This document shows, piece by piece, positions 1 to 10,994 of a DNA stretch of 64,000 bases. Both the position numbers and the translations under genes were made by a program. The notes beneath the pieces were generated by a model. It ran no database searches. It saw nothing but the letters and a program-made list of their open reading frames with translations, and was not told the origin of the DNA. Source of the DNA: Vulcanimicrobiota bacterium (GTDB taxonomy: Bacteria > Vulcanimicrobiota > Xenobia > Xenobiales > Xenobiaceae); assembly GCA_944322965.1 (NCBI GenBank), contig CALUQR010000004.1:33141-97140 (forward strand). Reading direction: 5' to 3'. Each line of letters starts with the position of its first letter. Position 1 is the stretch's first letter.

Positions 1-2
1 GT

Positions 3-602
3 CAGTTGCGAGAAGTGCGCAAGTTGGCCCAAGATAAGCGCATGCGCAATACGATCCTCGACATGGCGGCCAACGCCCGTTTCTTGAGTAATGAGCTGCG
101 CATCGTCAGTAAGGATACGAATCGCTATTTGGCCTTAGCTTACGACTCTTTAGATAGTTACGACCGTCAGATAGTCGATCAATTAGAGCGCTTCGACTTA
201 CAGATCGCCCAGAGCCGCGAGACTTTAAGTAAGCTTACCGCCACTACCAAGAGCAAGAGTTCCCAATGGCGCCAGCAAAGCGAAGAGTTAAATAATAAGC
301 TTCACAATTTAGGTCAACTGGCGGTAGCGGAGACGGAGCGCTATCGCCACTTAAGCGCCCAAGCGGAGGAGCGCCTCACCCAAGTTGGCAATCCTCAAAT
401 AGTAGCCAAACTCCACCGCGCCGCCCGCAAGAGCCGGGAATACGCCCAGATAGCCGAAGACTTACATTACATCACTAGCGAACCTTCCACCCAAGAGGCT
501 CTAAAAGGCATGGCTGCTAAGTACAAAGACCAAGCCAAATCGATAGACGACCTCTTACGCAAAATAGAAAGCATTATACCCGGCTCTATTCCGGAGGAAT
601 AG
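3..602 (+). CDS. Coiled-coil hypothetical protein (5' partial)
   Basis: Frame is open to the window edge; helical E/Q/K/R/L-rich sequence with no recognised motif. Confidence 0.6.
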   Translation, partial: QLREVRKLAQDKRMRNTILDMAANARFLSNELRIVSKDTNRYLALAYDSLDSYDRQIVDQLERFDLQIAQSRETLSKLTATTKSKSSQWRQQSEELNNKLHNLGQLAVAETERYRHLSAQAEERLTQVGNPQIVAKLHRAARKSREYAQIAEDLHYITSEPSTQEALKGMAAKYKDQAKSIDDLLRKIESIIPGSIPEE

Positions 603-610
603 AGCCGGGT

Positions 611-1510
611 ATAATGCGGAATTCGGAGGGCGCTAGCCGCCGGAACGGCGGCTAGCAATGCGGAATGCTTAATTCGTAATTCGGAATTGGGGAAGTAGGG
701 CGCCGCCTGAGGGCGGCAGCTTAAGTTGCTGCTTGTTAGTGACTTGGCGGATCCGAGAATCGCTTGGCCTATGAGAGAATCGTCGGCTTCGCCAAATCTA
801 ATTCGTAATGCGGAATGCATAGTTCGGAATTAAATGGCTCTTGTTAGTGGATTGGCAAATCCGAAAATAACTTAGCCTATGGGAAAATCGCTGGCAGTTT
901 CACTGCCTTTTTAGCGCTTTGGTTCTGGCGTCCAGATCCTCATTTGTGTTCTGTTACCGGAATGAGGCCTTTAGGGCGTTTGTCCAATGAGACCGCGGCG
1001 CGGGCCCCGCGCCGCACATCCCCAGCGATTTTCTCCCAGCCAAGCCACTCACGGAATCAGCCGGTCATTTCCCCAGCCCCCTCGCCCCTCACCCACTGCC
1101 GAAACCAAGGTTAGCGCCATAACTTTCCCCACTGTCAGGCGCTTCCTCAATTCCGAATTCCGCCCTCCTAATTCCGAATTGCTTTTCCCCCCGCCGCGCC
1201 GCCCCTAATTCCGCATTACGCATTTCTAATTCCCAATTTATCTGGCGGCCGGAGGCTGCCAGATAAGCGCATTCCGAACTCCTAATTACGAATTGTTCCT
1301 CCATCTCGCCCCTCACCCACCGCGAAACTAAAGTTAGAGACACGCCCTCCCTCCTCGCCGCGTCCCCTCAATTACGCATTACGAATTCCTAATTCCGCAT
1401 TACCTTCCCTCGCCTCTAAGTTCTGCTGAAACCAAAGTTAGCGCCAGAACCTTTGTCCTGCGGCAACCCACTACCTCAATTACGCATTCCTAATTCCTAA
1501 TTCCGAATTG
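611..1510. repeat. Modular quasi-palindromic intergenic element, copy E1 (expanded)
   Basis: Heptamer arrays (AATGCGG/AATTCGG/AATTCGT on the left; reverse complements AATTCCG/AATTACG/CATTCCG on the right), hairpin GCTAGCCGCCG-GAA-CGGCGGCTAGC at 632-656, and modules shared with E2-E5. Confidence 0.85.
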
Positions 1511-2698
1511 CCCCGTCTTATACTGGACGTAGGTGATGGCCAGGCTGCCGATGATGAAACAGATGAGGAGCAGGTGTTCCATGGCGGTCATGCCCCAGAG
1601 GGGGGTGAAGGTTCCTTGGATCCCGGAGATGACGGTCATCGCTCCCCAGGCGGTGAGGGTATTGAGCGAGCCAAAGGCCGTCTTTTCGCCTATAGAGGGG
1701 AACATTTGGGGTATAGAGATGACTAGGGCCATAGAGTAGATGCGGTCCAGGGTCATAAAGAGGGCGATAGCGGCGATAGCCCAGTCGAGGTTTAGACCTC
1801 CGTAGATGAAGAGGGGCAGGATGACGAGGGAGAGGATGAGGGCCGAGAGATAGGTGAAGCGGTGGCCTAGGCGTTTAATGATGGAATTAGTGGCAAAATT
1901 AATGAGGCAGTCGGCCAGTCCAATAATGAGCAGGGCCAGGCTGATCTTAGCTAAGTCTAGTCCGTAATGGTAGGGGAACCACAATCCGCACAGGGAGTAG
2001 AATCCGAAGTAGGCCATACGGTTGACGGTGGAGCCTAGGTAATAGGTCCAGGCGTAGGGCGCGGTCAGGGCTTGGCGGTAGGGATTGAGGAAGCGGGCTA
2101 GCCAGGACTCTTGGGGTTTAGGGCTAGGGGGGGTAGCTTCGACCTCCTCCGGGTTGCGGGGGTAGTACCAGGCTAGGATAAGCCCCGAACTAGCGGCCAG
2201 GAGGGCGATAACAGTCACCGGCCAGTGCCAGTTCCATTGGTAGGTCATTAGTCCCGCGGCCGGCACCCCTAAGGCGGTGGCTAGAGGGCGGGCGGACATT
2301 AAGACGGCCAACATGGCGGCGTAGTAGTTTTTAGAAATATCGTGGAAGGTCAAGCGCCACATAATAGAGGCGATGAGTCCGGCCGCCACTCCGGCTAGGG
2401 CCCTACATCCTAGCGCCCAAAGGAAATTGGGGCAGACTACTAGGGCCATTTGGGAGAGGGCTAAGAGCAAGACGCACCCGGCCAGGAAGCAGCGCCGATC
2501 CCAGCTGGCTACGAGGGCCGGTCCCAGGATTAGTCCCACCACGGTTCCGCCCGTACAGAAAGAGATCAGCCACAGCGCGCGCTGGGGGCTGACCTTAAAA
2601 TCTTCGCTCAAGGGCCCGATGAGGGGGGCGATAGAATTATCTATAGAGTTGAAAGCGAAGATGAGGATAAAGGAGAGTATGACCAGGAAGAGTTGCAT
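1490..2698 (-). CDS. MFS transporter (probable exporter)
   Basis: 402 aa with about 12 hydrophobic segments in a 6+6 arrangement; last gene of the four-gene operon. Confidence 0.85.
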   Translation of the reverse strand: MQLFLVILSFILIFAFNSIDNSIAPLIGPLSEDFKVSPQRALWLISFCTGGTVVGLILGPALVASWDRRCFLAGCVLLLALSQMALVVCPNFLWALGCRALAGVAAGLIASIMWRLTFHDISKNYYAAMLAVLMSARPLATALGVPAAGLMTYQWNWHWPVTVIALLAASSGLILAWYYPRNPEEVEATPPSPKPQESWLARFLNPYRQALTAPYAWTYYLGSTVNRMAYFGFYSLCGLWFPYHYGLDLAKISLALLIIGLADCLINFATNSIIKRLGHRFTYLSALILSLVILPLFIYGGLNLDWAIAAIALFMTLDRIYSMALVISIPQMFPSIGEKTAFGSLNTLTAWGAMTVISGIQGTFTPLWGMTAMEHLLLICFIIGSLAITYVQYKTGQFGIRN

Positions 2699-2719
2699 GG
2701 CGCCGCCGTCCGTTCTCCT

Positions 2720-4033
2720 TTAAGGATTAGAGCCGGTACCTAGGGCTCGCATAGCCATCCGCAAGACGCTTTGAGTATACTCGGGGCTATCTCCAAAGAC
2801 GGCGATACTCACTCCCCCGTGGAGCGGGGGCGAGGTCAAGACTAAGCCGCGACGGGCCCGATGGGCCTGGAGCGGCGAGCGCAGGAGCACATTCTCCCCT
2901 TCGTAGGTCAAAAATTCGAGCGCTTGCAAGACGGTGGCGCTGTCGGTGAGGGAGGTGGGACACTCTTCGCGGCTAGCGATAAAGAGGCGCGACCAGTACT
3001 CGCCAAAGAGGCGCTTCCCTAAGTCGAGGACGTAGCTCAAACCATTGTGGCGGAAGTTGCACTCTAAGAGGATCGGCTCTAGGATCCCTTGGGCGTTAGG
3101 TTTAATACCCCAGTCTACATTGAGTAAGCCGCGCGCCCCGGCTAGATGGAGGGCCCGGCCTAAACGTTGGCTGGCGGCAGCGATCTCTTCTAAGAAGGCC
3201 TTTTGGTTTTGGAGGGGCACGGCCGGGTAATCGAAGCCTTGCCAATGGCCGTCGCGCACCACCTGACGGTCGATAGCTAAAAGCTGGGAGCCTACGCCGT
3301 CGAGGAGGGTCAGGGACCCGCATACTTCAACGAAGTCCAAGAAGGGTTCTACTAAGACTCGCCCTAGGCTATACCACTTGGGGATACGCTCTTGGAGTTG
3401 GGAGGCGGTTCCGCTCATATTGCCGCATCCCCCGGCGCATTTCACTTTGCGCAACATGATCCGCCCCTGGCGTTTATCTTCTAAGGTGGCGGTCAGGCGT
3501 TCGATAGCCAGGCTGAGATCGCTCAAATTATCGGCGTGCAGTCCCTCTACGACCCGGCAGCTAGCGCCTAAACCCAGCCCTTTGCAGAAGTCTTTATCGT
3601 TAATGGCCTCTACTAAGTCCCGTTCGACTAGGCGGCGAGGGGTGACACGGAGGGGCAACCCCAGGAGGTCTCCCACTTGGTAGGCGGCGGGCGACTGGTA
3701 GTAGGGTTCTAAGTACCAGCCTGGCCCTTGGCAGCGGCGGCGCAACTCGCGCAGGGCGTGGCTGTCTTGGTGGATGGAATCTCCTAAAAGGCAGGAAGCC
3801 GCCAATTGGACGTCTAGGACCACCTCCGTCGGTTGGCCTAGCCCCAGAAGCTGGCAGGCGTACTTTTGGAAGCTCAGCTCAATGGGGATAGGGGTCGCCA
3901 AAATATCGCCCGGATCGAGACCATAGAGGAAGCGCGCGAACATTTTGCGCGATTTCGACATAAAGATCTGGGTAAAGGAGGCGTCTAGTTGGGAGAGGGC
4001 CTCCTCCGTATTGGGGAAGAAGAGTTTAGGCAT
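2720..4033 (-). CDS. ATP-grasp amide ligase with pre-ATP-grasp domain (PGM1-like)
   Basis: N-terminal 'RFLYGLDPGDILATPIPI..FQKYACQLLG' pre-ATP-grasp pattern; K..AGGCGN loop, VLVEPF, NVDW and ECNFR ATP-grasp motifs. Confidence 0.7.
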   Translation of the reverse strand: MPKLFFPNTEEALSQLDASFTQIFMSKSRKMFARFLYGLDPGDILATPIPIELSFQKYACQLLGLGQPTEVVLDVQLAASCLLGDSIHQDSHALRELRRRCQGPGWYLEPYYQSPAAYQVGDLLGLPLRVTPRRLVERDLVEAINDKDFCKGLGLGASCRVVEGLHADNLSDLSLAIERLTATLEDKRQGRIMLRKVKCAGGCGNMSGTASQLQERIPKWYSLGRVLVEPFLDFVEVCGSLTLLDGVGSQLLAIDRQVVRDGHWQGFDYPAVPLQNQKAFLEEIAAASQRLGRALHLAGARGLLNVDWGIKPNAQGILEPILLECNFRHNGLSYVLDLGKRLFGEYWSRLFIASREECPTSLTDSATVLQALEFLTYEGENVLLRSPLQAHRARRGLVLTSPPLHGGVSIAVFGDSPEYTQSVLRMAMRALGTGSNP

Positions 4034-4997
4034 AGAAAGTCCCGTTACAGAGCATCTGGCGCGGATATTCGCGCAGATTGAGTCCGCGAATGCTCTTGAG
4101 CGAGCAGAGCACGAACTGGAAGTTACGCGCCATAAGCGCTTTGGCCACTTTATCGACGGACTCTAAGGCCACGTCGTTCTTTTGGGCGAAAGAGATCGTA
4201 TCCTCTTGGCCGGGCAAGACTTGACGCTCGGAGTGGAGGTCGTAGCGCTCTAAGAGCTCTGACCACAGCTTGGGATCTACCAGGGGGGGCATACTCTCTA
4301 AGAGCGTAGGCGAGAGCAGGAGGTAGGACCACATGACCCGCTTCAGCTTATAACTCTCCAAAAGGTCGAGGAAGGGCTGGAGCGCTTGGGGCTGGTCGTC
4401 AATTTGGGCCACGAAGGGGTCGCAGTGGATAGTAGTCAGTAATCCCGCCTCTTGGGCCTGGGCGGCCGCCTCCAAGCGCTGGCGCAGGGGAAGTAAATTC
4501 TTCTCAAAGCTGGGTAGCGGGTCGGGGTCTAAGAGGGAGGAGGGCCTACAGGCGGCGTTATAGGAGAACTTCTGAGGGTAACGGGCTAAAAGCTCCAAGA
4601 GCTGACGGTCGGGCGCCCCCTTAGTGGTGATGATCACTCGGGAGACGCGAGATTTAGCTAAGATCTCTAAGATCTCATAACTCAAGCCGTCGGCCACAAA
4701 GCGGGGGCTAAAGATGTCCGTATAGCGGGAGAGCTTAAAGATAGAGACTTGGCCGCTATTAGCTTGGCGCTCGATAGCCTCCAAGAGTTCCTGACGGGGT
4801 AAGAGGGGCTGGGGATTAGCGAAGTTCGTTCCCAGCTCCGCTAGAGAGTTGCGCACCGCCATCCGGCTGCGGGCGTAGCAATAAGGGCAATTATGTTCGC
4901 AACCTACCCAAGGTTCTAAATAGTGGTACTTCCCGTACCAGCAGGTCCCCAAGGACCCGGGAGCGACTAATTGGACGCGCTCAACGTTGGGACTCAT
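4026..4997 (-). CDS. Radical SAM enzyme, spore-photoproduct-lyase-like family
   Basis: LEPWVGCEHNCPYCYA (CxxxCxxC), TD motif, ITTK, and DP near the strand ends. Confidence 0.85.
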   Translation of the reverse strand: MSPNVERVQLVAPGSLGTCWYGKYHYLEPWVGCEHNCPYCYARSRMAVRNSLAELGTNFANPQPLLPRQELLEAIERQANSGQVSIFKLSRYTDIFSPRFVADGLSYEILEILAKSRVSRVIITTKGAPDRQLLELLARYPQKFSYNAACRPSSLLDPDPLPSFEKNLLPLRQRLEAAAQAQEAGLLTTIHCDPFVAQIDDQPQALQPFLDLLESYKLKRVMWSYLLLSPTLLESMPPLVDPKLWSELLERYDLHSERQVLPGQEDTISFAQKNDVALESVDKVAKALMARNFQFVLCSLKSIRGLNLREYPRQMLCNGTFYA

Positions 4998-5039
4998 AAG
5001 TTTTAATAATACCTCTCATATCTTTCCAAAAAGTCTTCT

Positions 5040-5705
5040 TTACACCTTGCGGGCTAAGATCCCGCCATAGAAAGAGGAGCGGGGGTAAGTTTTTAAGAGT
5101 TGGAAGCCTCCCCGCTGCAGGCACTCCTTCCAGTAACCTAAGCCGCAGGGGTGTTCCCGGCGGAAACTGTTGTAGAGATCTTGGCGCTTACTCTCCCAGC
5201 TCTCTCCGTAATAACGGGCCGCATCGGCCCACAGCTCTTCCCAATGATCGTCAAGCTGCGAGCGTTCGAAATTAAAGAAGATGCCATCCTCTATGTAGAG
5301 CAGGGCCCCGGAGCGGAAGGCGGGCCCTAAGTTGAGGCAGAGTTCCAGCTTTTGAGGGTCGGCGAGGTGGTGTAGAGCCTTGCGGGAGAAGCCCTTAGTA
5401 AAGGATTGGGCTGGCGCCTGGAACTTTTCAAAGGAGGTACAAGTTAATTCCCAAGGAGTAGCCAAGGCGCTACACTTTTCGCTAGCTAAAGAGATCTGCA
5501 GGGGCGAGAGATCGATCCCGTGGACTCGGGCCACTTTAGGGGCGGCGTAAGTTAAGAACTCCCCCGCTCCGCAACCCAAATCGAGGAGCGCGTCTTGGGG
5601 CCCCAACTCTAAGAGCTCTAAGTAAGGGGCGTACTCCTGGCTGGGAGTCGCGTAATTAGTATTGTAGTAGCGCACGTATTCGTCATTTAACCAATTCTCT
5701 TCCAT
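5040..5705 (-). CDS. Class I SAM-dependent methyltransferase
   Basis: LLDLGCGAG, GIDLS and ALHHL motifs; start moved to ATG 5705 (GAGG RBS) rather than 5960. Confidence 0.85.
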   Translation of the reverse strand: MEENWLNDEYVRYYNTNYATPSQEYAPYLELLELGPQDALLDLGCGAGEFLTYAAPKVARVHGIDLSPLQISLASEKCSALATPWELTCTSFEKFQAPAQSFTKGFSRKALHHLADPQKLELCLNLGPAFRSGALLYIEDGIFFNFERSQLDDHWEELWADAARYYGESWESKRQDLYNSFRREHPCGLGYWKECLQRGGFQLLKTYPRSSFYGGILARKV

Positions 5706-5732
5706 AATCGTTCCTCGCCTCTCTAGATCCGT

Positions 5733-5762
5733 TTGCCAGATTTGCTGGTGCAATGGTATAAT
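5733..5762 (+). promoter_or_regulatory. Putative sigma70 promoter
   Basis: TTGCCA, 18 bp, TATAAT with extended TG, upstream of ATG 5832. Confidence 0.6.
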
Positions 5763-5831
5763 CAGGAACTTACAATTAATAGTTCGTGCCCTGCGGGTGG
5801 GAGCCTGGAGGGACGGAAGGTGGAATCTTTC

Positions 5832-6314
5832 ATGATCAATAATTGGCAGCCTGTGGCCTGTGATCGGCCCAATATCACCCTCTACGAACGCCAGTCCCCG
5901 CGCGGCCAGGCGGAGATCGAGCGCCACGAAGACGGTTCGGCTAGCGCCTCCTCTAAGCACGGCCCCTTAGGGTTGGGCATGTCTATTGAAGCCGACTACT
6001 TTAGCCCCGCTCCTAGCGACGAGCAGATCTTAGATCGCATGGACCAGAGCGCCTACCCTCCCATCTACGGCGAGTGGAAAGAGGTAGAGCCCAAAGGTCC
6101 CAAGCTCCCCAGCGTCAAGACCTATGAAGGGCGCGAGACGGGCGGGCTCATTAAGAGCAAAGTCACGGTAACTATCGATCGCGATAAGGACCGGGTCGAC
6201 TTTGTAGGTAAGGTGGGCCATTTTGGAATGGAGATGGAGGGTACCTTCTTCGCCCCCACCCCCTCCGACCAGGAGATCTTGACTCGCCTCTCCCGCAATC
6301 CCAAGCTAGATTAG
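5832..6314 (+). CDS. Hypothetical protein with two internal repeats
   Basis: GMSIEADYFSPAPSDEQILDRM vs GMEMEGTFFAPTPSDQEILTRL; GGAAGG RBS before ATG 5832; promoter upstream. Confidence 0.7.
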   Translation: MINNWQPVACDRPNITLYERQSPRGQAEIERHEDGSASASSKHGPLGLGMSIEADYFSPAPSDEQILDRMDQSAYPPIYGEWKEVEPKGPKLPSVKTYEGRETGGLIKSKVTVTIDRDKDRVDFVGKVGHFGMEMEGTFFAPTPSDQEILTRLSRNPKLD

Positions 6315-7089
6315 TCTCCCCTCCCCCATCCCTCTCCGGGGTTTGACCGGGCCGAGGGTAGGGGGTATAGGGGATAGCCCGATGGTTGGGCTTATAGCGC
6401 CAGCAGTACCAATAGAGTTGGGCTAGCTGGCGCAAATAATTTAAAATCTCGCCGCTACCGAATTTGCTCCGTCCCAACTGGCGATCGACGAAGGTGAAGG
6501 GCGCCTCGCAGAGGGTAGCGTAACGCCCTTTGATCATTACTTCCAGGTTAATTTTAAAGCCGATAGGGTTGAGCTCTACCCCTTCGATAACTTCGCGCTT
6601 CATGAGCAAGTAACCGGAAGTTACGTCCCGAGCGGGGCAGATGGGGCGCCCCAACATAATGGCTACCCAGGAAGTAAAGCGCCTAAACCAGGGCCAATTA
6701 GCCACCCCTCCCCCGGGCGCGTAGCGACTCCCCAGAGCGATATCGGCGCCCCCTTCTAGGAGAGAGTAGATCATGTCGGGCAAGATGGCCGGATCGTGGG
6801 AGAGATCGGCGTCAATCACCCCCAAAAGGCGCCCTTTAGCCTCCTTCCAGCCGGCGATAACGGCGGAGGAGAGCCCCAACTTACCGCTCCGGCGCAAGAC
6901 GCGCACTCCGTAGCGGGGATCGAGACTTTCGGCTACCTGGGCCGTGCCGTCGGGGGAATTGTCGTCTACTATTAAGATCTCCGCCCGGTAGGGGGTAGGT
7001 TCCAAGGCGGCGGTGATCTTTTGCACTAGGGGGATGAGGTTTTCCCGCTCGTTGTAAGTGGGAACCACTAGGGTGAGGGTGGGATTCAT
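6172..7089 (-). CDS. GT2 polyprenol-phosphate mannose synthase-like glycosyltransferase
   Basis: VVPTYNERENL, VDDNSPDGT, IDADLSH and DVTSGY motifs; the C-terminal tail overlaps the opposite gene. Confidence 0.9.
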   Translation of the reverse strand: MNPTLTLVVPTYNERENLIPLVQKITAALEPTPYRAEILIVDDNSPDGTAQVAESLDPRYGVRVLRRSGKLGLSSAVIAGWKEAKGRLLGVIDADLSHDPAILPDMIYSLLEGGADIALGSRYAPGGGVANWPWFRRFTSWVAIMLGRPICPARDVTSGYLLMKREVIEGVELNPIGFKINLEVMIKGRYATLCEAPFTFVDRQLGRSKFGSGEILNYLRQLAQLYWYCWRYKPNHRAIPYTPYPRPGQTPERDGGGETNLAWDCGRGESRSPGRRGWGRRRYPPSPFQNGPPYLQSRPGPYRDR

Positions 7090-7557
7090 TTAAAGTTGGA
7101 TCACTTTCTCAGAGTTGAGGCAAATATCGAGAATGAGGTGCACGGAGACTAAGTGGCCTACTTTGAGTTTATCGGTCAGCCCCAAATTGTGGAGCGAGGT
7201 CTCGCAGACGCGCAGGGAGCAGCCTCTCTTTTGGAGGAGCTGCAAGACGGGCACAAACTCCGAGTCTTCTAGGCATAGGCGCACCGCTTCATGGATAAAG
7301 ATCAGGTACTTAGGGGGCGATTTGAGGCCATTGAGGTTAAAGATAGCCGCACGTAAGAGTTCCCGCCCCAAGTCGTCGGGCGCCCCAATGTAGAGGTGGG
7401 AGATGAGGACCGCTCCCCGGTTGGGCGGATCCTGGCGGGTTCCCAGTTGGGCGCTCTCCTGGTCGAGGGGGCGGCCGTAGCGCAGGGCGCCTAAATAGTA
7501 CTGGAGGTCCTTCTCTTCAAAGCGAGGAGGAGCGGTGAGACTCACTTTAGCTTCCAT
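7090..7557 (-). CDS. DsrE/YedF C-terminal-like sulfur/selenium transfer protein
   Basis: 'G..DDLGRELL..AI..L....PPK.LIFI.EAVRL', 'VCETSL..LGL.DKLKVG'. Confidence 0.7.
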   Translation of the reverse strand: MEAKVSLTAPPRFEEKDLQYYLGALRYGRPLDQESAQLGTRQDPPNRGAVLISHLYIGAPDDLGRELLRAAIFNLNGLKSPPKYLIFIHEAVRLCLEDSEFVPVLQLLQKRGCSLRVCETSLHNLGLTDKLKVGHLVSVHLILDICLNSEKVIQL

Positions 7558-7765
7558 GGCTTTTTTCCCCTCAGAGAGAGTTTTGAGCGTCCGCAGAACT
7601 TCCCCTAAATAGGCTGCGCTCCTTCCTCTCCGCGCCTAGTAATCCCGCTCCTAAAAGAGGGCATAGCAGGTTTTTGCTAGACCCATATCTAAGAGTTAGG
7701 GGAGCTAATTGAGGTTCCAATTAACGGTCACCTAATTCCCCATAGGGCTAGATGGAAGAGGGATA

Positions 7766-8152
7766 ATGGAAGTTAGGCGGGTGCTAGTCGTAGATGACAA
7801 CGAGGACATGTGCGTCTTGTTGGCTAGCTTTTTGCGCATGGCTGGTTGGGAGGTTTTGACTACTACCAGCGGCTCGCAGGCCTTAGAATTGGCCGCTTCC
7901 AACCCCATAGACGCCATTATGCTCGACTTGCAGATGCCGGAGATGAGTGGGCCCGAGGTCTTTTTGGAACTCAAAAAGGATCCCCGCACCGCCGATATTC
8001 CCTGTATCCTCTTTACTTGTCACGTCGAGAATTTAGATAAAGAGCATTACCTGCGTTTGGGCTTTAGAGGGGTGCTCTCCAAGAGCTTTATCGTTGAGCG
8101 TTTAGTGGGCGACATTTCTAAGATGTTAGGTTGGGATGTAGGTCGTCCATGA
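7766..8152 (+). CDS. Single-domain response regulator (CheY-like receiver)
   Basis: VLVVDD, MLDLQMPEMSG, conserved T and K. Confidence 0.9.
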   Translation: MEVRRVLVVDDNEDMCVLLASFLRMAGWEVLTTTSGSQALELAASNPIDAIMLDLQMPEMSGPEVFLELKKDPRTADIPCILFTCHVENLDKEHYLRLGFRGVLSKSFIVERLVGDISKMLGWDVGRP

Positions 8153-9360
8153 ATTCGCCGGCTGGGAAGGCGGTGCGCGCCAAATTGCGGGGGTTATTCT
8201 GGGGTTTCCGCTGGCGCCTACTCTTGATGGTGGCCCTCATCCAAGCTTTGGCCTTCGCTCTAGCTTCCTTTTACGTACTCTCTACTTCCCGCCAGCAGGG
8301 GGAGCGCGACTTAGAACTCAGCTTAGAACAAGCGGTCGACAGTTACTCTTTTGTAGCCACTCGCTCTTATGAGTCTCTGACTGCGCGGGCGGAAGAGCTG
8401 GCGGCCGATCCCAGTTGGCGCGCCCTTTTGGGGTCTAACCCTTTAGACGAGGCTAAAAAACGGGAGTTAAAAGAGCGCACCGTAGCCGATCTAGGTTCAG
8501 TAGCGGGGGATCTCCTCTTAATAGTCGACTCCCAGCGCCACATCCTCTTCCAGGCTTCCCGCCCTCAGAATAAGCAGTTAGATAGCCAGCGCCCTACCCT
8601 AACTGAGGTCGACTTCGCCCAGGGTCCCTTATTGCTCCCTACGGGTACGGAGAGTAACCCTCAGCGTCTAGAATTTAGTTTTTTAGAGCCCCTCTTTAAG
8701 CTCAATGAGGTTAGTCGCGGCTTTATGCTCTATCCCGATCCGCGCCATGGCGATCTCATCGCCGTAGTGGGGGTCGCTATCGACAAAGAGCGCCCTCAAG
8801 ACGGGGCTTTAGTCTTGGGGAAGCGTTTAGACGACAGTTCCCTCATCAAGTTGGCTCAAGGTATGCCGCGGGGGATCGTCTTAATTACGACTGGCGATCG
8901 CCTCTCTTTAGTCTACGATAACCGCTCCGGCACGCGCCCCACTCCTACTATGGCCGCGGCCTTAGAGGAGATGCTTAAAGGCTGGGATCCGGCCCGCGGT
9001 GAGAAGGCTTTACAGACGGGGAGCTTAGGTTTGAGCTTCCATTTAGACGACGCTCCCTTAGCGGGATGCCAATGGAAAGCGGCGGTCGTCAACTTAGGGA
9101 ATCTGCGCAACTCCGGGGCTTTAGGTTATCTCATCTTCTTAGCCGACCCCCAGAGCTTAACTACCCAATTAGACTTATTGACTCGCGGCCTCATCACTTG
9201 CGGCCTGCTCAGCCTAGTCGTCCAGATTATCCTCCTCTTCTTCTGCGCCCCCCTAGCCACCCGCTTCGCCCGTCCCTACTGGCAACTAGGCGTCCTCGGC
9301 CTAGTCGAACACCACGCTCAGAAGATTAATTCGGAATTAGGAATTCGTAATTCGGAGTGA
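8149..9360 (+). CDS. Membrane sensor-like protein (TM, Cache-like domain, TM) lacking an output domain; possibly truncated
   Basis: ATGA overlap with the receiver gene; two TM helices around a large extracytoplasmic region; C-terminus runs into repeat E2 (INSELGIRNSE*). Confidence 0.6.
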   Translation: MNSPAGKAVRAKLRGLFWGFRWRLLLMVALIQALAFALASFYVLSTSRQQGERDLELSLEQAVDSYSFVATRSYESLTARAEELAADPSWRALLGSNPLDEAKKRELKERTVADLGSVAGDLLLIVDSQRHILFQASRPQNKQLDSQRPTLTEVDFAQGPLLLPTGTESNPQRLEFSFLEPLFKLNEVSRGFMLYPDPRHGDLIAVVGVAIDKERPQDGALVLGKRLDDSSLIKLAQGMPRGIVLITTGDRLSLVYDNRSGTRPTPTMAAALEEMLKGWDPARGEKALQTGSLGLSFHLDDAPLAGCQWKAAVVNLGNLRNSGALGYLIFLADPQSLTTQLDLLTRGLITCGLLSLVVQIILLFFCAPLATRFARPYWQLGVLGLVEHHAQKINSELGIRNSE

Positions 9361-9905
9361 GCTAGCCGCCGGGACAGCGGCTTAGCAATTCGGAATGCGG
9401 AATTCGTAATTCGGAATTAAGAAGCGCTTGTTAATGGCTTGGCAGATTTGGGAATAACTTGGCATACGGGAGAATCGAGCTTGCCGCCGGAGGCGGCAAT
9501 GCGGAATGCTTAATTCGGAATAGAGTGGCTGTTGTTAGTAGCTTGGCGGATCTGGAAGTAGCTTAGTCTAGGGGAGAATTGCACTGAGTGCTCGAGCGCC
9601 CAATTCCTAGATTTGTGCTCTGTTTTTAGAACACTTGTCCCATTGGACCGTGCGGGCTACGCCCGCACATCAGAACGATTTTCTCCTCTAGCCAAGGGGC
9701 CCCTCGGAATCTGTCAGTCATTCCCCCGAGCTACCTAGCCCATCACCCATTGCCGAAACAAAAGTTTCCGCCAGAACCTTTGTCCTGCGGCAACCCAATT
9801 ATGCATTATGCACTCCGAATTACGCATTGCCGCCTCCAGGCGGCTATCCGCATTCCGAATTCCTAATTCCGCATTGTTCTGGCGGCAACATAAGTCTTGC
9901 GGCAA
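9326..9905. repeat. Modular element copy E2
   Basis: Heptamer arrays, hairpin at 9361-9386, two A modules (~9426, ~9528), C module (~9676), reverse heptamers at ~9797-9875. Confidence 0.85.
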
Positions 9906-9974
9906 CCAAGGTTACGGTTATATACTCTCCTTAGTGATAACTTAACTTCGATACGCATAAAAGGGGGGGGCAGA

Positions 9975-10994
9975 TTGAGTCACGATTCTAGTTACAAAAA
10001 GTTTTTCAGTCGCGTCGATATGGTTGAATCGTTAGTGCGCGACTTTATTTCTAAAGATTTAGCTGATGAGCTAGACTTTAAGACTCTGAAGCTCATGCCT
10101 ACCGTTTTCCAAAAGCATGGGCAGACAGAACGGCGTGGCGATCTTATTTGGCGACTCAAATGGCGAGATGGTAACCCTTGCCTTTTGGCTATACTCTTAG
10201 AGTTTCAGAGTACTATCGATAAGAAGATGCTCTGTCGGTTAATGGAATATGCCACTCTATTCTTAGAGCAAACATTGGACGATGATAAGAACAAAGGGCT
10301 GACTTTGCCGCAAATTTTACCCATAGTCCTTTACAATGGGGCAAAGCCTTGGAGTGCGCCTCGCGTTTATGGCGAGTTATCGGAGCGCGAAAGACTGGCT
10401 TATGAGCGCGGCATTTGGGATTTCAAATACCATTTAATTGACATTCGCCATCTAGAAGAATCTTTGGTTGATAAGGCTAAGGGTATCAGCGCCTGGATCT
10501 TTCGCTTTGAGCGGGCGGCCAACGTCCAGGAGATGGAGAGGCTCTGGAGAGTGATGTTCCGCGCTCTAAAGAGTCCAGCTTATGAAAATTTGCGCCAAGA
10601 GATTATAATCTGGCTAGAGACTTGCGTCTTGCCGGTCCGTAAAATCGCGGGCGCTAAAATAGTTGTAAAACGTTTGAAGGAGGAAGAGAAGATGACCGTA
10701 GTTACCGCCGAAATGGAAGACTGGACCCTCCCCTACATCAACCAAGGAATAAGACAAGGCCGCACCGAAGGTGAGGCACGCGGTCGCGCTGAGGGGAGAC
10801 TTGAAGGTAAGCTCGAGGGGGAGCGCATAGGAGAGTTACGCGGTAGAACTGAGGGAATTGCAGAGAAAGCGGCTCAAGTTATCCGCCAAATGATCGCTGA
10901 GGGATTTGAGGACAATCTGATCGCCAGATTAGTCAGCGTCCCCTTATCTGAAGTAAAAAAACTACGCATTGCTAGCCGCCGGGACGGCGGTTAG
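9975..10994 (+). CDS. Rpn family (transposase_31 / PD-(D/E)XK) recombination-promoting nuclease
   Basis: HDSSYK..F, RGDLIW, LLEFQS, PIVLYNG..PW motifs and C-terminal G(R/K)xEG repeats; lower GC; TTG start after a G-rich RBS. Confidence 0.9.
   Translation: MSHDSSYKKFFSRVDMVESLVRDFISKDLADELDFKTLKLMPTVFQKHGQTERRGDLIWRLKWRDGNPCLLAILLEFQSTIDKKMLCRLMEYATLFLEQTLDDDKNKGLTLPQILPIVLYNGAKPWSAPRVYGELSERERLAYERGIWDFKYHLIDIRHLEESLVDKAKGISAWIFRFERAANVQEMERLWRVMFRALKSPAYENLRQEIIIWLETCVLPVRKIAGAKIVVKRLKEEEKMTVVTAEMEDWTLPYINQGIRQGRTEGEARGRAEGRLEGKLEGERIGELRGRTEGIAEKAAQVIRQMIAEGFEDNLIARLVSVPLSEVKKLRIASRRDGG
10692..10994 (+). CDS. Putative intragenic small protein (RpnS-like antitoxin), in frame with Rpn
   Basis: AAGGAGG at 10677-10683, 8 nt before in-frame ATG 10692; 100 aa covering the GxxEG repeats. 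Confidence 0.55.
   Translation: MTVVTAEMEDWTLPYINQGIRQGRTEGEARGRAEGRLEGKLEGERIGELRGRTEGIAEKAAQVIRQMIAEGFEDNLIARLVSVPLSEVKKLRIASRRDGG

What the first reader, a model, noticed from the sequence alone, without database searches (positions are those of the whole stretch)
1490..5705. Compact biosynthetic operon: methyltransferase + SPL-like radical SAM + PGM1-like ATP-grasp ligase + MFS
Seen: four co-oriented genes with gaps of 42, -8 and 21 bp. Known: pre-ATP-grasp/ATP-grasp ligases of the PGM1 (pheganomycin) and KtmD (ketomemicin) type join unusual amino acids to peptides or pseudopeptides in actinomycetes. Inference: the radical SAM and methyltransferase build a modified amino acid or nucleoside, the ligase forms an amide, and the MFS exports it. 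I do not recognise this combination. No amidinotransferase or short precursor ORF is evident, and rule-based BGC finders may miss it.
Basis: partly seen in the sequence, partly recalled or inferred. Interest (0 to 1): 0.75.

Follow-up and report, generated by a model that had tools for sequence, protein, structure and literature searches.

The report
Conserved radical-SAM/ATP-grasp ligase export cassette
Four neighbouring genes (a methyltransferase, an unusual radical SAM enzyme, an amide-forming ligase and a membrane transporter) are kept together in gut and groundwater bacteria of several phyla and probably make and export a small, still unknown dipeptide-like compound.

Summary
Four minus-strand genes lie at 1490-5705 with gaps of 42, -8 and 21 bp: a class I methyltransferase, an SPL-fold radical SAM enzyme, a PGM1/BesA-type pre-ATP-grasp ligase and an MFS transporter.

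- **Co-occurrence:** the genes co-occur widely. Of 67 genome loci found with the radical SAM protein, 51 hold all four genes, and 9 of the 16 others are cut by a contig end. Hosts include Xenobiaceae (this genome), Elusimicrobiota, Riflebacteria/Ozemobacteraceae and Wallbacteria.
- **Split loci:** where the cassette is split, it splits into rSAM+ligase and MT+MFS pairs, and both pairs stay in the genome.
- **Not a repair lyase:** the radical SAM protein shares the SPL fold (Z 19.2) but fails the SPL family models.
- **Ligase fold:** it matches 8ynd, PGM1 and BesA at TM 0.75-0.80.

An 8-nt rSAM-stop/ligase-start overlap is kept in 52 of 63 loci. All database names are "hypothetical protein" or "DNA repair photolyase". 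Seven literature searches found no description of the cassette.

The best reading is NRPS-independent synthesis and export of a small methylated amide. The product is unknown.

The parts
5040..5705 (-). Class I SAM-dependent methyltransferase, 221 aa from the ATG at 5705 (the ORF is open up to a GTG at 5960)
   Evidence: Pfam Methyltransf_25 2.3e-13 and Methyltransf_11 2.5e-12. Relatives align from residue 1 of the 221-aa form. A family profile matches phosphoethanolamine N-methyltransferases best in the PDB (7.2e-17 to 1.5e-13). Family-invariant residues include DxGCGxG and RK..HHL.
4026..4997 (-). SPL-fold radical SAM enzyme, 323 aa, with CX3CX2C at C33/C37/C40 and further invariant C19, C298, C317 and a C-terminal ...FYA
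   Evidence: Pfam Radical_SAM 3.3e-07. NCBIfam PA0069 family scores only 38 bits against a cut-off of 360. AF2 model has pLDDT 90.2. The best solved fold is spore photoproduct lyase 4fhc: Foldseek E 2.8e-07, TM 0.60; VIA Z 19.2 against 14.4 for the next chain.
2720..4033 (-). PGM1/BesA-type pre-ATP-grasp amide ligase, 437 aa
   Evidence: Pfam PreAtp-grasp 3e-11. PDB sequence hits are 8ynd 3.3e-07 and PGM1 0.024. AF2 model has pLDDT 94.0. Foldseek gives 8ynd E 1.5e-27 (TM 0.76/0.80), PGM1 3wvq 3.6e-25 and BesA 8yi6 9.4e-22, with PurK next at TM about 0.55. Invariant columns include N145, K147, G202/G204/N205, D255, Q257, E324, N326, R328 and N330.
1490..2698 (-). MFS transporter, 402 aa
   Evidence: Pfam MFS_1 5.9e-30. 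The weak best NCBIfam matches are mostly efflux families (Cmx/CmrA 6.8e-12, Bcr/CflA 9.4e-06), all far below their cut-offs. Orthologs are 52-60% identical in family loci.
4026..4033 (-). 8-nt overlap ATGCCTAA: the rSAM ends ...F-Y-A-stop while the ligase starts M-P-K
   Evidence: Read directly. The same -8 junction occurs in 52 of 63 loci that hold both genes.
6172..7557 (-). Co-oriented upstream GT2 glycosyltransferase (6172-7089) and YedF-like protein (7090-7557). These are neighbours only in this genus and are not part of the conserved cassette.
   Evidence: Pfam Glycos_transf_2 7.3e-31 and NCBIfam YedF 2.4e-17, below cut-off. They are adjacent in the 8 long genus loci but in none of the 7 loci of other genera of the family. 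One RNA-library contig spans 1483-7656.

Best explanation
The four genes form one functional unit: an NRPS-independent pathway that makes a small amide-linked (dipeptide-like or gamma-glutamyl-like) metabolite and moves it across the membrane.

- **Ligase:** the PGM1/BesA-type ATP-grasp activates a carboxylate as an acyl phosphate and couples it to an amine.
- **Radical SAM:** the SPL-fold enzyme is translationally coupled to the ligase. It uses a 5'-deoxyadenosyl radical for a C-C or C-N rearrangement or a lyase step on the amino-acid part. That substrate is either the acid before ligation or the ligated product, as in the BesA-then-tailoring logic.
- **Methyltransferase:** the class I enzyme, closest to small-amine N-methyltransferases, methylates the product.
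- **Transporter:** the MFS, always paired with the MT, exports it.

Shown here: the folds, the conserved catalytic-type residues, the co-inheritance of the four genes, and the two-pair substructure. Inferred: substrates, order of steps, direction of transport, and the product.
For: **Co-occurrence**
- All four genes are present in 51 of 67 loci, and 9 of the 16 partial loci end at a contig edge where the missing gene is expected.
- The ligase is found in 17 of 18 other genomes of the family and in 0 of 22 other genomes of the order and class.

**Split cassettes**
- In the Elusimicrobiales genomes where rSAM+ligase lack neighbouring MT and MFS, an adjacent MT-MFS pair sits elsewhere in 3 of 4 genomes (64-69% identity to a sister clade).

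**Co-evolution**
- Pairwise identity matrices of the four families correlate at r = 0.90-0.94 over 46 complete loci. Relatedness inflates this figure.
- The 8-nt rSAM/ligase overlap is kept in 52 of 63 loci.

**Ligase**
- The fold matches 8ynd, PGM1 and BesA at TM 0.75-0.80, far above other ATP-grasps.
- The invariant ATP-grasp-type residues are kept.

**Radical SAM**
- SPL is the top fold match (Z 19.2).
- A second SPL-like enzyme, phage M6 gp53, is a mutase acting on a glycine moiety (PMC8989533, passages read). Amino-acid rearrangement therefore has a precedent in this fold.

**Methyltransferase and transporter**
- The MT profile's best PDB hits are phosphoethanolamine N-methyltransferases.
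- The MFS's weak best matches are mostly efflux families.

**Accessory genes**
- Peptide-related genes recur beside the cassette: an M20 ArgE/DapE-type deacylase within the flanks of 20 loci, an M15 D-Ala-D-Ala dipeptidase in 6, and a second LAL-type ATP-grasp in L089.
Against: - No product, substrate or activity is known for any member. Every name in the databases is 'hypothetical protein' or 'DNA repair photolyase'.
- The direction of transport is not shown. The weak MFS matches also include importers (TsgA, aromatic-acid and galactonate symporters).
- The MT's N-methyltransferase likeness rests on the SAM-binding core (profile positions about 24-140).
- The cassette is kept in very small genomes (1.5-2.4 Mb) and in nearly all members of one family. 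That fits a physiological role at least as well as a classic 'secondary metabolite'.
- Three further invariant cysteines in the rSAM could mean an auxiliary cluster and chemistry other than a mutase or lyase step.
- The accessory peptidases are absent from this genome. The best M20 match is 4.2e-8 at 27% identity.
Confidence: 0.5

Rival explanations
1. Uptake and intracellular conversion. The MFS imports, or pumps out, an external compound from the gut or sediment, and the three enzymes convert it. This would be salvage, catabolism or detoxification/resistance rather than biosynthesis.
For: The direction of transport is unknown, and the weak NCBIfam matches include importers as well as drug-efflux pumps. 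The MT-MFS pair persists as its own unit, a layout also seen in modify-and-pump resistance. The cassette is retained in streamlined genomes. One locus has a TetR regulator next to the MFS (L031).
Against: ATP-grasp ligases of the PGM1/BesA clade are known (recalled) only as biosynthetic amide ligases. The rSAM and ligase are the most tightly coupled pair, which is unusual for catabolism. No catabolic enzymes such as dehydrogenases or aminotransferases recur among the 98 flanking ORFs scanned.
Confidence: 0.15
2. Pheganomycin-type hybrid. The ligase caps the N-terminus of a ribosomally made peptide, encoded elsewhere, with an acid built by the rSAM and MT.
For: PGM1, one of the three closest solved folds, ligates a non-proteinogenic acid to a ribosomal peptide. 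This is stated in PMC8939145 (passages read), which also notes a radical SAM and a C-methyltransferase in the pheganomycin cluster.
Against: No conserved small ORF lies in the window's 466-bp upstream gap or in the MT-rSAM gaps of the 8 genus-relative loci examined. In most other loci the genes abut or overlap, with median gaps of 10.5, -8 and -1 nt, which leaves no room. An MFS is a more usual exporter for small molecules than for peptides. A precursor encoded elsewhere cannot be excluded.
Confidence: 0.1
3. Cell-envelope or peptidoglycan-peptide remodelling. The ligase and rSAM make or alter a D-amino-acid or stem-peptide-like unit.
For: A D-Ala-D-Ala dipeptidase (M15; NCBIfam 6.2e-50) sits directly upstream of the rSAM in the closely related Elusimicrobiales loci and inverted in L060. 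A DapE/ArgE-type M20 lies in the flanks of 20 loci. A GT2 is upstream in this genus.
Against: The ligase fold is PGM1/BesA-like, not Ddl- or Mur-like. The M15 loci form essentially one clade, so they count as one event. GT2 linkage is confined to one genus. The M20 is absent from this genome. An MFS is not a known lipid-linked precursor flippase (recalled).
Confidence: 0.07
4. The radical SAM protein is a DNA-repair lyase (SPL) that merely neighbours unrelated genes.
For: SPL is the best fold match. Some sources name homologs 'DNA repair photolyase'.
Against: The Pfam SPL model PF20903 finds nothing in this genome, while the B. subtilis control rings over the cut-off. No SPL model appears in the Pfam or NCBIfam scans. 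Identity to SPL is 13-16%. The overlap with the ligase is fixed across phyla, and all four genes co-occur.
Confidence: 0.01

Closest known systems
PGM1 (pheganomycin), BesA (beta-ethynylserine pathway) and the Streptomyces 'ATP-grasp peptide ligase' 8ynd: pre-ATP-grasp amide ligases
   Same: They share the N-terminal PreAtp-grasp domain and the whole-chain fold: TM 0.75-0.80, E 1e-27 to 1e-22. The N-terminus aligns with 8ynd from MPK onward. ATP-grasp-type invariant residues are kept.
   Different: Identity is only 19-20%. The window's orthologous group is separate: about 75 representatives at E <= 1e-57, then a step to 1e-48, within a wider family of 1794 representatives. Hosts are uncultured anaerobes rather than actinomycetes, and the partners differ (SPL-fold rSAM, MT, MFS). 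The substrates of PGM1 and BesA are recalled or taken from PMC8939145 and were not tested here.
Spore photoproduct lyase (SplB) and phage M6 gp53 (SPL-like radical SAM isomerase of N-alpha-glycinyl-thymidine)
   Same: It has the radical SAM CX3CX2C motif and the SPL-type fold (Z 19.2, 263 residues aligned, rmsd 3.5). gp53 shows that this fold can rearrange an amino-acid moiety (PMC8989533).
   Different: It fails the SPL HMMs. A family profile finds no PDB sequence match. tblastn finds no phage relative. Its context is a small-molecule operon with a transporter, not DNA repair or DNA modification. It has its own invariant residues (C19, C298, C317, C-terminal FYA). Likeness to gp53 itself was not tested.
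Pyrrolysine genes pylB/pylC (radical SAM mutase makes methylornithine, ATP-grasp ligase joins it to lysine): an analogy recalled from memory
   Same: The logic matches the proposal here: a radical SAM enzyme supplies an unusual amino acid, and an ATP-grasp ligase forms the amide.
   Different: The families differ. PylB ranks far below SPL as a fold match (Z 11.4), and the ligase is PGM1-like, not PylC/Ddl-like. There is no PylD. The MT and MFS are additional.

Membership tests
PGM1/BesA-type pre-ATP-grasp ligases (Pfam PF18604 plus ATP-grasp fold) | N-terminal PreAtp-grasp domain | tested here: met
   PF18604 at 3e-11, 44.2 bits against a cut-off of 27.5, residues 34-126.
PGM1/BesA-type pre-ATP-grasp ligases (Pfam PF18604 plus ATP-grasp fold) | Whole-chain fold like the solved members | tested here: met
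   Model pLDDT 94. Foldseek gives 8ynd at 1.5e-27 (TM 0.76/0.80), 3wvq at 3.6e-25 and 8yi6 at 9.4e-22. The next family, PurK, is at TM about 0.55.
PGM1/BesA-type pre-ATP-grasp ligases (Pfam PF18604 plus ATP-grasp fold) | Nucleotide/Mg-binding and catalytic residues of ATP-grasp enzymes conserved | tested here: inconclusive
   N145, K147, the G-rich loop G201-N205, E324, N326 and R328 are invariant or nearly so in 29 sequences. Their roles are assigned from general knowledge of ATP-grasp enzymes (recalled), not from a residue-by-residue superposition.
PGM1/BesA-type pre-ATP-grasp ligases (Pfam PF18604 plus ATP-grasp fold) | ATP-dependent amide bond formation | not testable with these tools
   This needs an enzyme assay.
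Spore photoproduct lyase (Pfam PF20903 SPL; SplB) | Radical SAM CX3CX2C cluster motif | tested here: met
   C33, C37 and C40 are invariant in 17 sequences. Pfam Radical_SAM scores 31.1 bits against a cut-off of 29.5.
Spore photoproduct lyase (Pfam PF20903 SPL; SplB) | Match to the family's sequence model | tested here: not met
   PF20903 finds no match in the whole genome at E <= 0.001, while the control genomes ring, B. subtilis among them. The model is absent from the Pfam and NCBIfam hit lists.
Spore photoproduct lyase (Pfam PF20903 SPL; SplB) | SPL-type fold | tested here: met
   4fhc at Z 19.2, rmsd 3.5, 263 residues aligned, with the next chain at 14.4. Foldseek TM is 0.60.
PA0069-family radical SAM (NCBIfam NF033668) | Score at or above the curated cut-off | tested here: not met
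   38.3 bits against a cut-off of 360.
Pheganomycin-type RiPP/ligase hybrid cluster | Precursor peptide gene in the cluster | tested here: not met
   No conserved small ORF was found in the window or in the 8 genus-relative loci examined. Junctions in other loci are too short to hold one. A precursor encoded elsewhere is not excluded.
MFS drug:H+ antiporter-type exporters | MFS fold and assignment to a named efflux subfamily | tested here: inconclusive
   MFS_1 at 5.9e-30. The best named subfamilies (Cmx/CmrA 45 bits against 400; Bcr/CflA 25 against 201) are far below their cut-offs.

The most novel reading that the evidence does not exclude
The cassette encodes a previously unseen small-molecule pathway shared by horizontal transfer among uncultured anaerobes (Elusimicrobiota, Xenobiaceae, Riflebacteria, Wallbacteria and others). 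In it, an SPL-fold radical SAM enzyme works hand in hand with a PGM1/BesA-type ligase on an amino-acid or dipeptide substrate. That would be the first small-molecule chemistry for the SPL clade. The product would be an N-methylated pseudo-dipeptide exported as a physiologically important gut metabolite, such as a metallophore, signal or antimetabolite.
Probability: 0.3. Interest if true: 0.8.

Novelty: new variant of a known kind. Interest (0 to 1): 0.62.

Why it matters
ATP-grasp ligase pathways of the PGM1/BesA type have so far been studied in actinomycetes (from recall; the three closest solved structures are Streptomyces proteins by title or recall). SPL-fold radical SAM enzymes are known only on DNA, from SPL and phage M6 gp53 (PMC8989533).

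Here the two are fused into one tightly coupled unit, with a methyltransferase and a dedicated transporter. The unit is conserved from chicken-gut Xenobiaceae to groundwater Elusimicrobia and bioreactor Riflebacteria, all lineages without cultured producers.

If the reading holds, it defines a new enzyme function for the SPL clade. It also defines a new metabolite class from little-known gut phyla, one that rule-based cluster finders would probably miss. The cassette is compact at 4.2 kb, so it can be tested directly by heterologous expression.

Tried and rejected
- **Complex prediction** of rSAM with ligase: no verdict (score 0.00). It says nothing either way.
- **Rfam:** window 1-10000 and ten diverse loci gave no riboswitch, T-box or other family.
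- **PADLOC:** nothing for three of the proteins, and only a generic MT hit (mad2, 1.3e-11) for the fourth. This is not a known defence system.
- **Phage collection,** tblastn with the rSAM: no match.
- **Family profile of the rSAM against PDB sequences:** no hit.
- **Small-ORF search:** nothing conserved in the window's GT2-MT gap or in the MT-rSAM gaps of relatives.
- **Promoter and terminator scans:** counts no higher than in shuffles, and no minus-strand site inside the cassette.
- **ESM Atlas:** for the MT only generic class I methyltransferase clusters. For the rSAM, 'SPL family radical SAM' clusters, partly viral or archaeal, with no function.
- **Earlier findings of this scan:** none by place or by sequence.
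- **Literature:** seven searches found no paper on this gene combination.
  - One search was wasted, because 'PGM1' mostly returns phosphoglucomutase.
  - Searches found nothing relevant.
  - The paper behind PDB 8ynd/8yi6 was not found in the library.
  - Most subscription journals are not covered.
- **RNA-library contigs**: they hold the locus, and one contig spans 1483-7656. Depth is flat across flanking regions and DNA carry-over cannot be excluded, so transcription and operon structure are not shown.
- **** failed on a format slip (a locus id given where a genome handle was needed). It was redone through.


Full report
**What is in the window**

The ORF lists show four minus-strand genes:
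- MFS, 1490-2698 (402 aa)
- ATP-grasp, 2720-4033 (437 aa)
- radical SAM, 4026-4997 (323 aa)
- a methyltransferase whose ORF runs 5040-5960 from a GTG; relatives align from the ATG at 5705 (221 aa)

Pfam gives MFS_1 (5.9e-30), PreAtp-grasp PF18604 (3e-11, above its cut-off), Radical_SAM (3.3e-07, just above its cut-off) and Methyltransf_25/11 (2.3e-13 and 2.5e-12).

NCBIfam has no model for the ligase. For the rSAM it gives only far-sub-threshold hits to PA0069-, Rv2578c- and 'mobile pair B'-type SPL-like families.

Upstream on the same strand lie a GT2 glycosyltransferase (6172-7089) and a YedF-like protein (7090-7557).

**Host**

Names on close homologs and on the matching genome records point to Candidatus Bruticola / UBP9. 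That is Xenobiaceae, in the phylum Vulcanimicrobiota (Eremiobacterota). The genome has 2.40 Mb in 20 contigs and is 96% complete. Public runs that hold the locus are chicken, bird and other animal gut metagenomes from 8 studies.

**Is the quartet conserved?**

Within the family, the ligase was found in 17 of 18 other genomes. The one miss is an 86%-complete genome. It was found in 0 of 22 genomes from the other families of the order and class.

tblastn on 17 fetched loci shows MT-rSAM-ligase-MFS in the same order in 15. The other two (L026, L027) are cut by contig ends, and in L027 the ligase matches in two pieces. GT2 and the YedF-like gene accompany the quartet only in the 8 long loci of the window's own genus. 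The flanks change in the other four genera, so the quartet is the conserved unit.

Beyond the family, a word-based search found only 15 ligase homologs but 151 rSAM homologs. The 120 listed are 42-65% identical and are named from Elusimicrobiota, Ozemobacteraceae/Riflebacteria and others.

A scan of species-representative genomes with the rSAM alignment returned 67 loci. phmmer with the window's four proteins against their six-frame ORFs gave these counts:

| Category | Loci (of 67) |
|---|---|
| All four genes present | 51 |
| - collinear and co-oriented (counting L049, whose rSAM ORF start is merely over-extended) | 43 |
| - MFS-MT divergent from rSAM-ligase | 8 |
| Partial | 16 |
| - end at a contig edge where the missing gene is expected | 9 |
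| - rSAM+ligase only, closely related Elusimicrobiales loci (L079, L080, L081, L084, L087) | 5 |
| - L064 (Oligoflexia), lacks the MFS | 1 |
| - L089, a variant: LAL-type ATP-grasp, rSAM, ligase, second rSAM | 1 |

In the genomes behind four of the five rSAM+ligase-only loci, an adjacent MT-MFS pair lies elsewhere in 3 of 4 (E 1e-103 to 1e-170). It was not found in the fourth. The unit therefore consists of two pairs, and both are retained even when unlinked.

Other measures of co-inheritance:
- Identity matrices of the four families over 46 complete loci correlate at r = 0.90-0.94. Shared ancestry inflates this figure.
- In a 301-genome sample of the Elusimicrobiota, the rSAM ortholog is present in 15, so the distribution there is patchy.
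- In a quick tree, the Xenobiaceae rows sit inside a starred set that also holds Elusimicrobiales rows. This suggests exchange between phyla. The tree is unrooted and several branches are long.
- An exhaustive profile search with the ligase finds about 75 representatives of the orthologous group (E <= 1e-57), then a step to 1e-48. The wider family has 1794 representatives.

**A fixed gene junction**

The rSAM ends ...F-Y-A-stop and the ligase starts M-P-K on the same eight nucleotides, ATGCCTAA. This -8 junction is present in 52 of 63 loci that hold both genes, across phyla. Median gaps for MT-to-rSAM and ligase-to-MFS are 10.5 and -1 nt.

The overlap ties the invariant C-terminus of one protein to the invariant N-terminus of the other, and it implies coupled translation. 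A complex prediction gave no verdict.

**The ligase**

The model built with 29 aligned sequences has pLDDT 94. Foldseek puts three chains far ahead of all other ATP-grasps:
- the Streptomyces 'ATP-grasp peptide ligase' 8ynd (E 1.5e-27, TM 0.76/0.80)
- PGM1 3wvq (3.6e-25)
- BesA 8yi6 (9.4e-22)

PurK and the rest sit at TM about 0.55. Invariant columns include N145, K147, the glycine-rich loop, D255, Q257, E324, N326, R328 and N330. This is the pattern expected of an active ATP-grasp enzyme, although the assignment of roles is recalled. The 'PGM1-like' call is therefore supported at the fold level, at 19-20% identity.

**The radical SAM enzyme**

The model has pLDDT 90. SPL is the best solved fold by Foldseek (E 2.8e-07, TM 0.60). 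It is also best in an exhaustive aligner run, at Z 19.2, 263 residues and rmsd 3.5, against 14.4 for the next chain.

Yet the protein is not an SPL. PF20903 finds nothing in the genome while the control genomes ring. No SPL model appears. A family profile has no PDB sequence hit.

The family is strongly conserved, with 58% mean column identity over 17 sequences from several phyla. Besides CX3CX2C, it keeps C19, C298, C317 and many basic residues invariant.

The only other characterised SPL-like enzyme I could document is phage M6 gp53. It is a mutase that moves a glycine from N- to C-linkage on thymidine in DNA (PMC8989533, passages read). That is a precedent for amino-acid rearrangement in this fold, but its likeness to the window's protein was not tested. 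tblastn against phages found nothing.

**The methyltransferase and the transporter**

A 23-sequence profile of the MT hits phosphoethanolamine N-methyltransferases first in the PDB. Eight of the nine best hits are of this kind, at 7.2e-17 to 1.5e-13, over the SAM-binding core. This is a lead towards N-methylation of a small amine, nothing more.

The MFS resembles efflux families weakly. It is unusually well conserved for an MFS, at 45% mean pairwise identity against 34% for the ligase. This fits a specific shared substrate.

**Accessory genes elsewhere**

- An M20 deacylase (NCBIfam PRK13983-type, 2e-165; ArgE/DapE subfamily) lies within the fetched flanks in 20 of 67 loci.
  - In Elusimicrobia it sits directly upstream of the MT and is co-oriented.
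  - In Ozemobacteraceae it sits downstream and is convergent.
  - The window's genome has no ortholog.
- An M15 D-Ala-D-Ala dipeptidase precedes the rSAM in the split Elusimicrobiales loci.
- Ozemobacteraceae add a pyruvate-kinase-barrel-only protein after the MFS.
- Otherwise the 98 immediate neighbours scanned are heterogeneous.
- No riboswitch, T-box or other Rfam family was found.
- No conserved small ORF was found.

**Reading**

The evidence shows one co-inherited unit. It is built from an amide ligase, a radical enzyme coupled to it, a methyltransferase and a transporter, with peptide-hydrolase accessories in some lineages.

The most economical mechanism is NRPS-independent synthesis and export of a small methylated amide, dipeptide-like or gamma-glutamyl-like. 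It follows the logic of PylB/PylC or of BesA followed by tailoring; both analogies are recalled.

Substrates, step order, transport direction and product are all inferred. I put this reading at about 0.5. The rivals are:
- uptake, salvage or detoxification (0.15)
- peptide capping as in pheganomycin (0.10)
- envelope-peptide remodelling (0.07)
- DNA repair (0.01)

**Novelty**

All database names are 'hypothetical protein' or 'DNA repair photolyase'. NCBIfam has no model for the ligase. Seven full-text searches found no description of the combination. The library lacks most subscription journals, so absence from print is not proven.

The components belong to known kinds. The combination, its cross-phylum conservation and a small-molecule role for an SPL-fold enzyme would be new.

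Noticed in passing
window 610-1512: This is a repeat-rich intergenic stretch between ORF 3-602 (+) and the MFS stop. It has units of about 108 nt built from heptamer-like words (AATTCCG, AATTACG, CATTACG) in both orientations: 7- and 5-copy direct families and 12 inverted pairs. RNA-library contigs break and join here, and summed depth is several-fold higher. No Rfam family matches. The same words form the last codons of the MFS and of ORF 8131-9360.
   Followed up: partly
window 5733-6314 (+): A 193-aa plus-strand ORF with an internal repeat and no Pfam match lies in the 466-bp GT2-MT gap. Genus relatives have only 13-119 bp there. A strong sigma-70-like site (11 of 12, with TG) sits at 5733-5762. 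The window's GT2 ORF carries a low-complexity C-terminal extension of about 56 aa (305 aa against about 249 aa in relatives), so an insertion or rearrangement here is likely.
   Followed up: partly
L028, L030, L032, L034, L035, L040, L092 (MT-rSAM gap): Genus relatives have a 112-285 nt gap between MT and rSAM. In five of the seven (L028, L030, L032, L034, L092) it has a GC hairpin plus T-run right after the MT; L035 and L040 lack it. The window has 42 bp. The cassette may be two transcripts in those species.
   Followed up: partly
L027 / L042 (same contig of a UBP9 genome), ligase at about 6242-7448: The ligase matches in two pieces in different frames. This is a possible frameshift, pseudogene or assembly error.
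   Followed up: no
L089:286-4516: This is a variant cluster in a MAG labelled Pseudomonadota: an LAL-type ATP-grasp (PF02222, LAL_C2), the rSAM ortholog, the PGM1-like ligase and a second rSAM paralog. No MT or MFS lies on the 4.5-kb contig.
   Followed up: partly
L054:10470-11459, L056:5426-6463, L057:4854-5226, L093:10470-10849: In Ozemobacteraceae, a protein of about 330 aa consisting only of the pyruvate-kinase barrel domain follows the MFS directly (PF00224, 5.7e-37). The M20 gene is convergent behind it in L054 and L056; L057 and L093 end at a contig edge.
   Followed up: no
window 9897-10994 (+): An Rpn/YhgA-like 'Transposase_31' protein (PF04754, 1.1e-25) with a repetitive charged C-terminal tail.
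   Followed up: no
window 4026-4997 (rSAM family): Three cysteines outside the CX3CX2C motif (C19, C298, C317) and the extreme C-terminal FYA are invariant in 17 sequences from several phyla. This suggests a possible auxiliary cluster or metal site.
   Followed up: no
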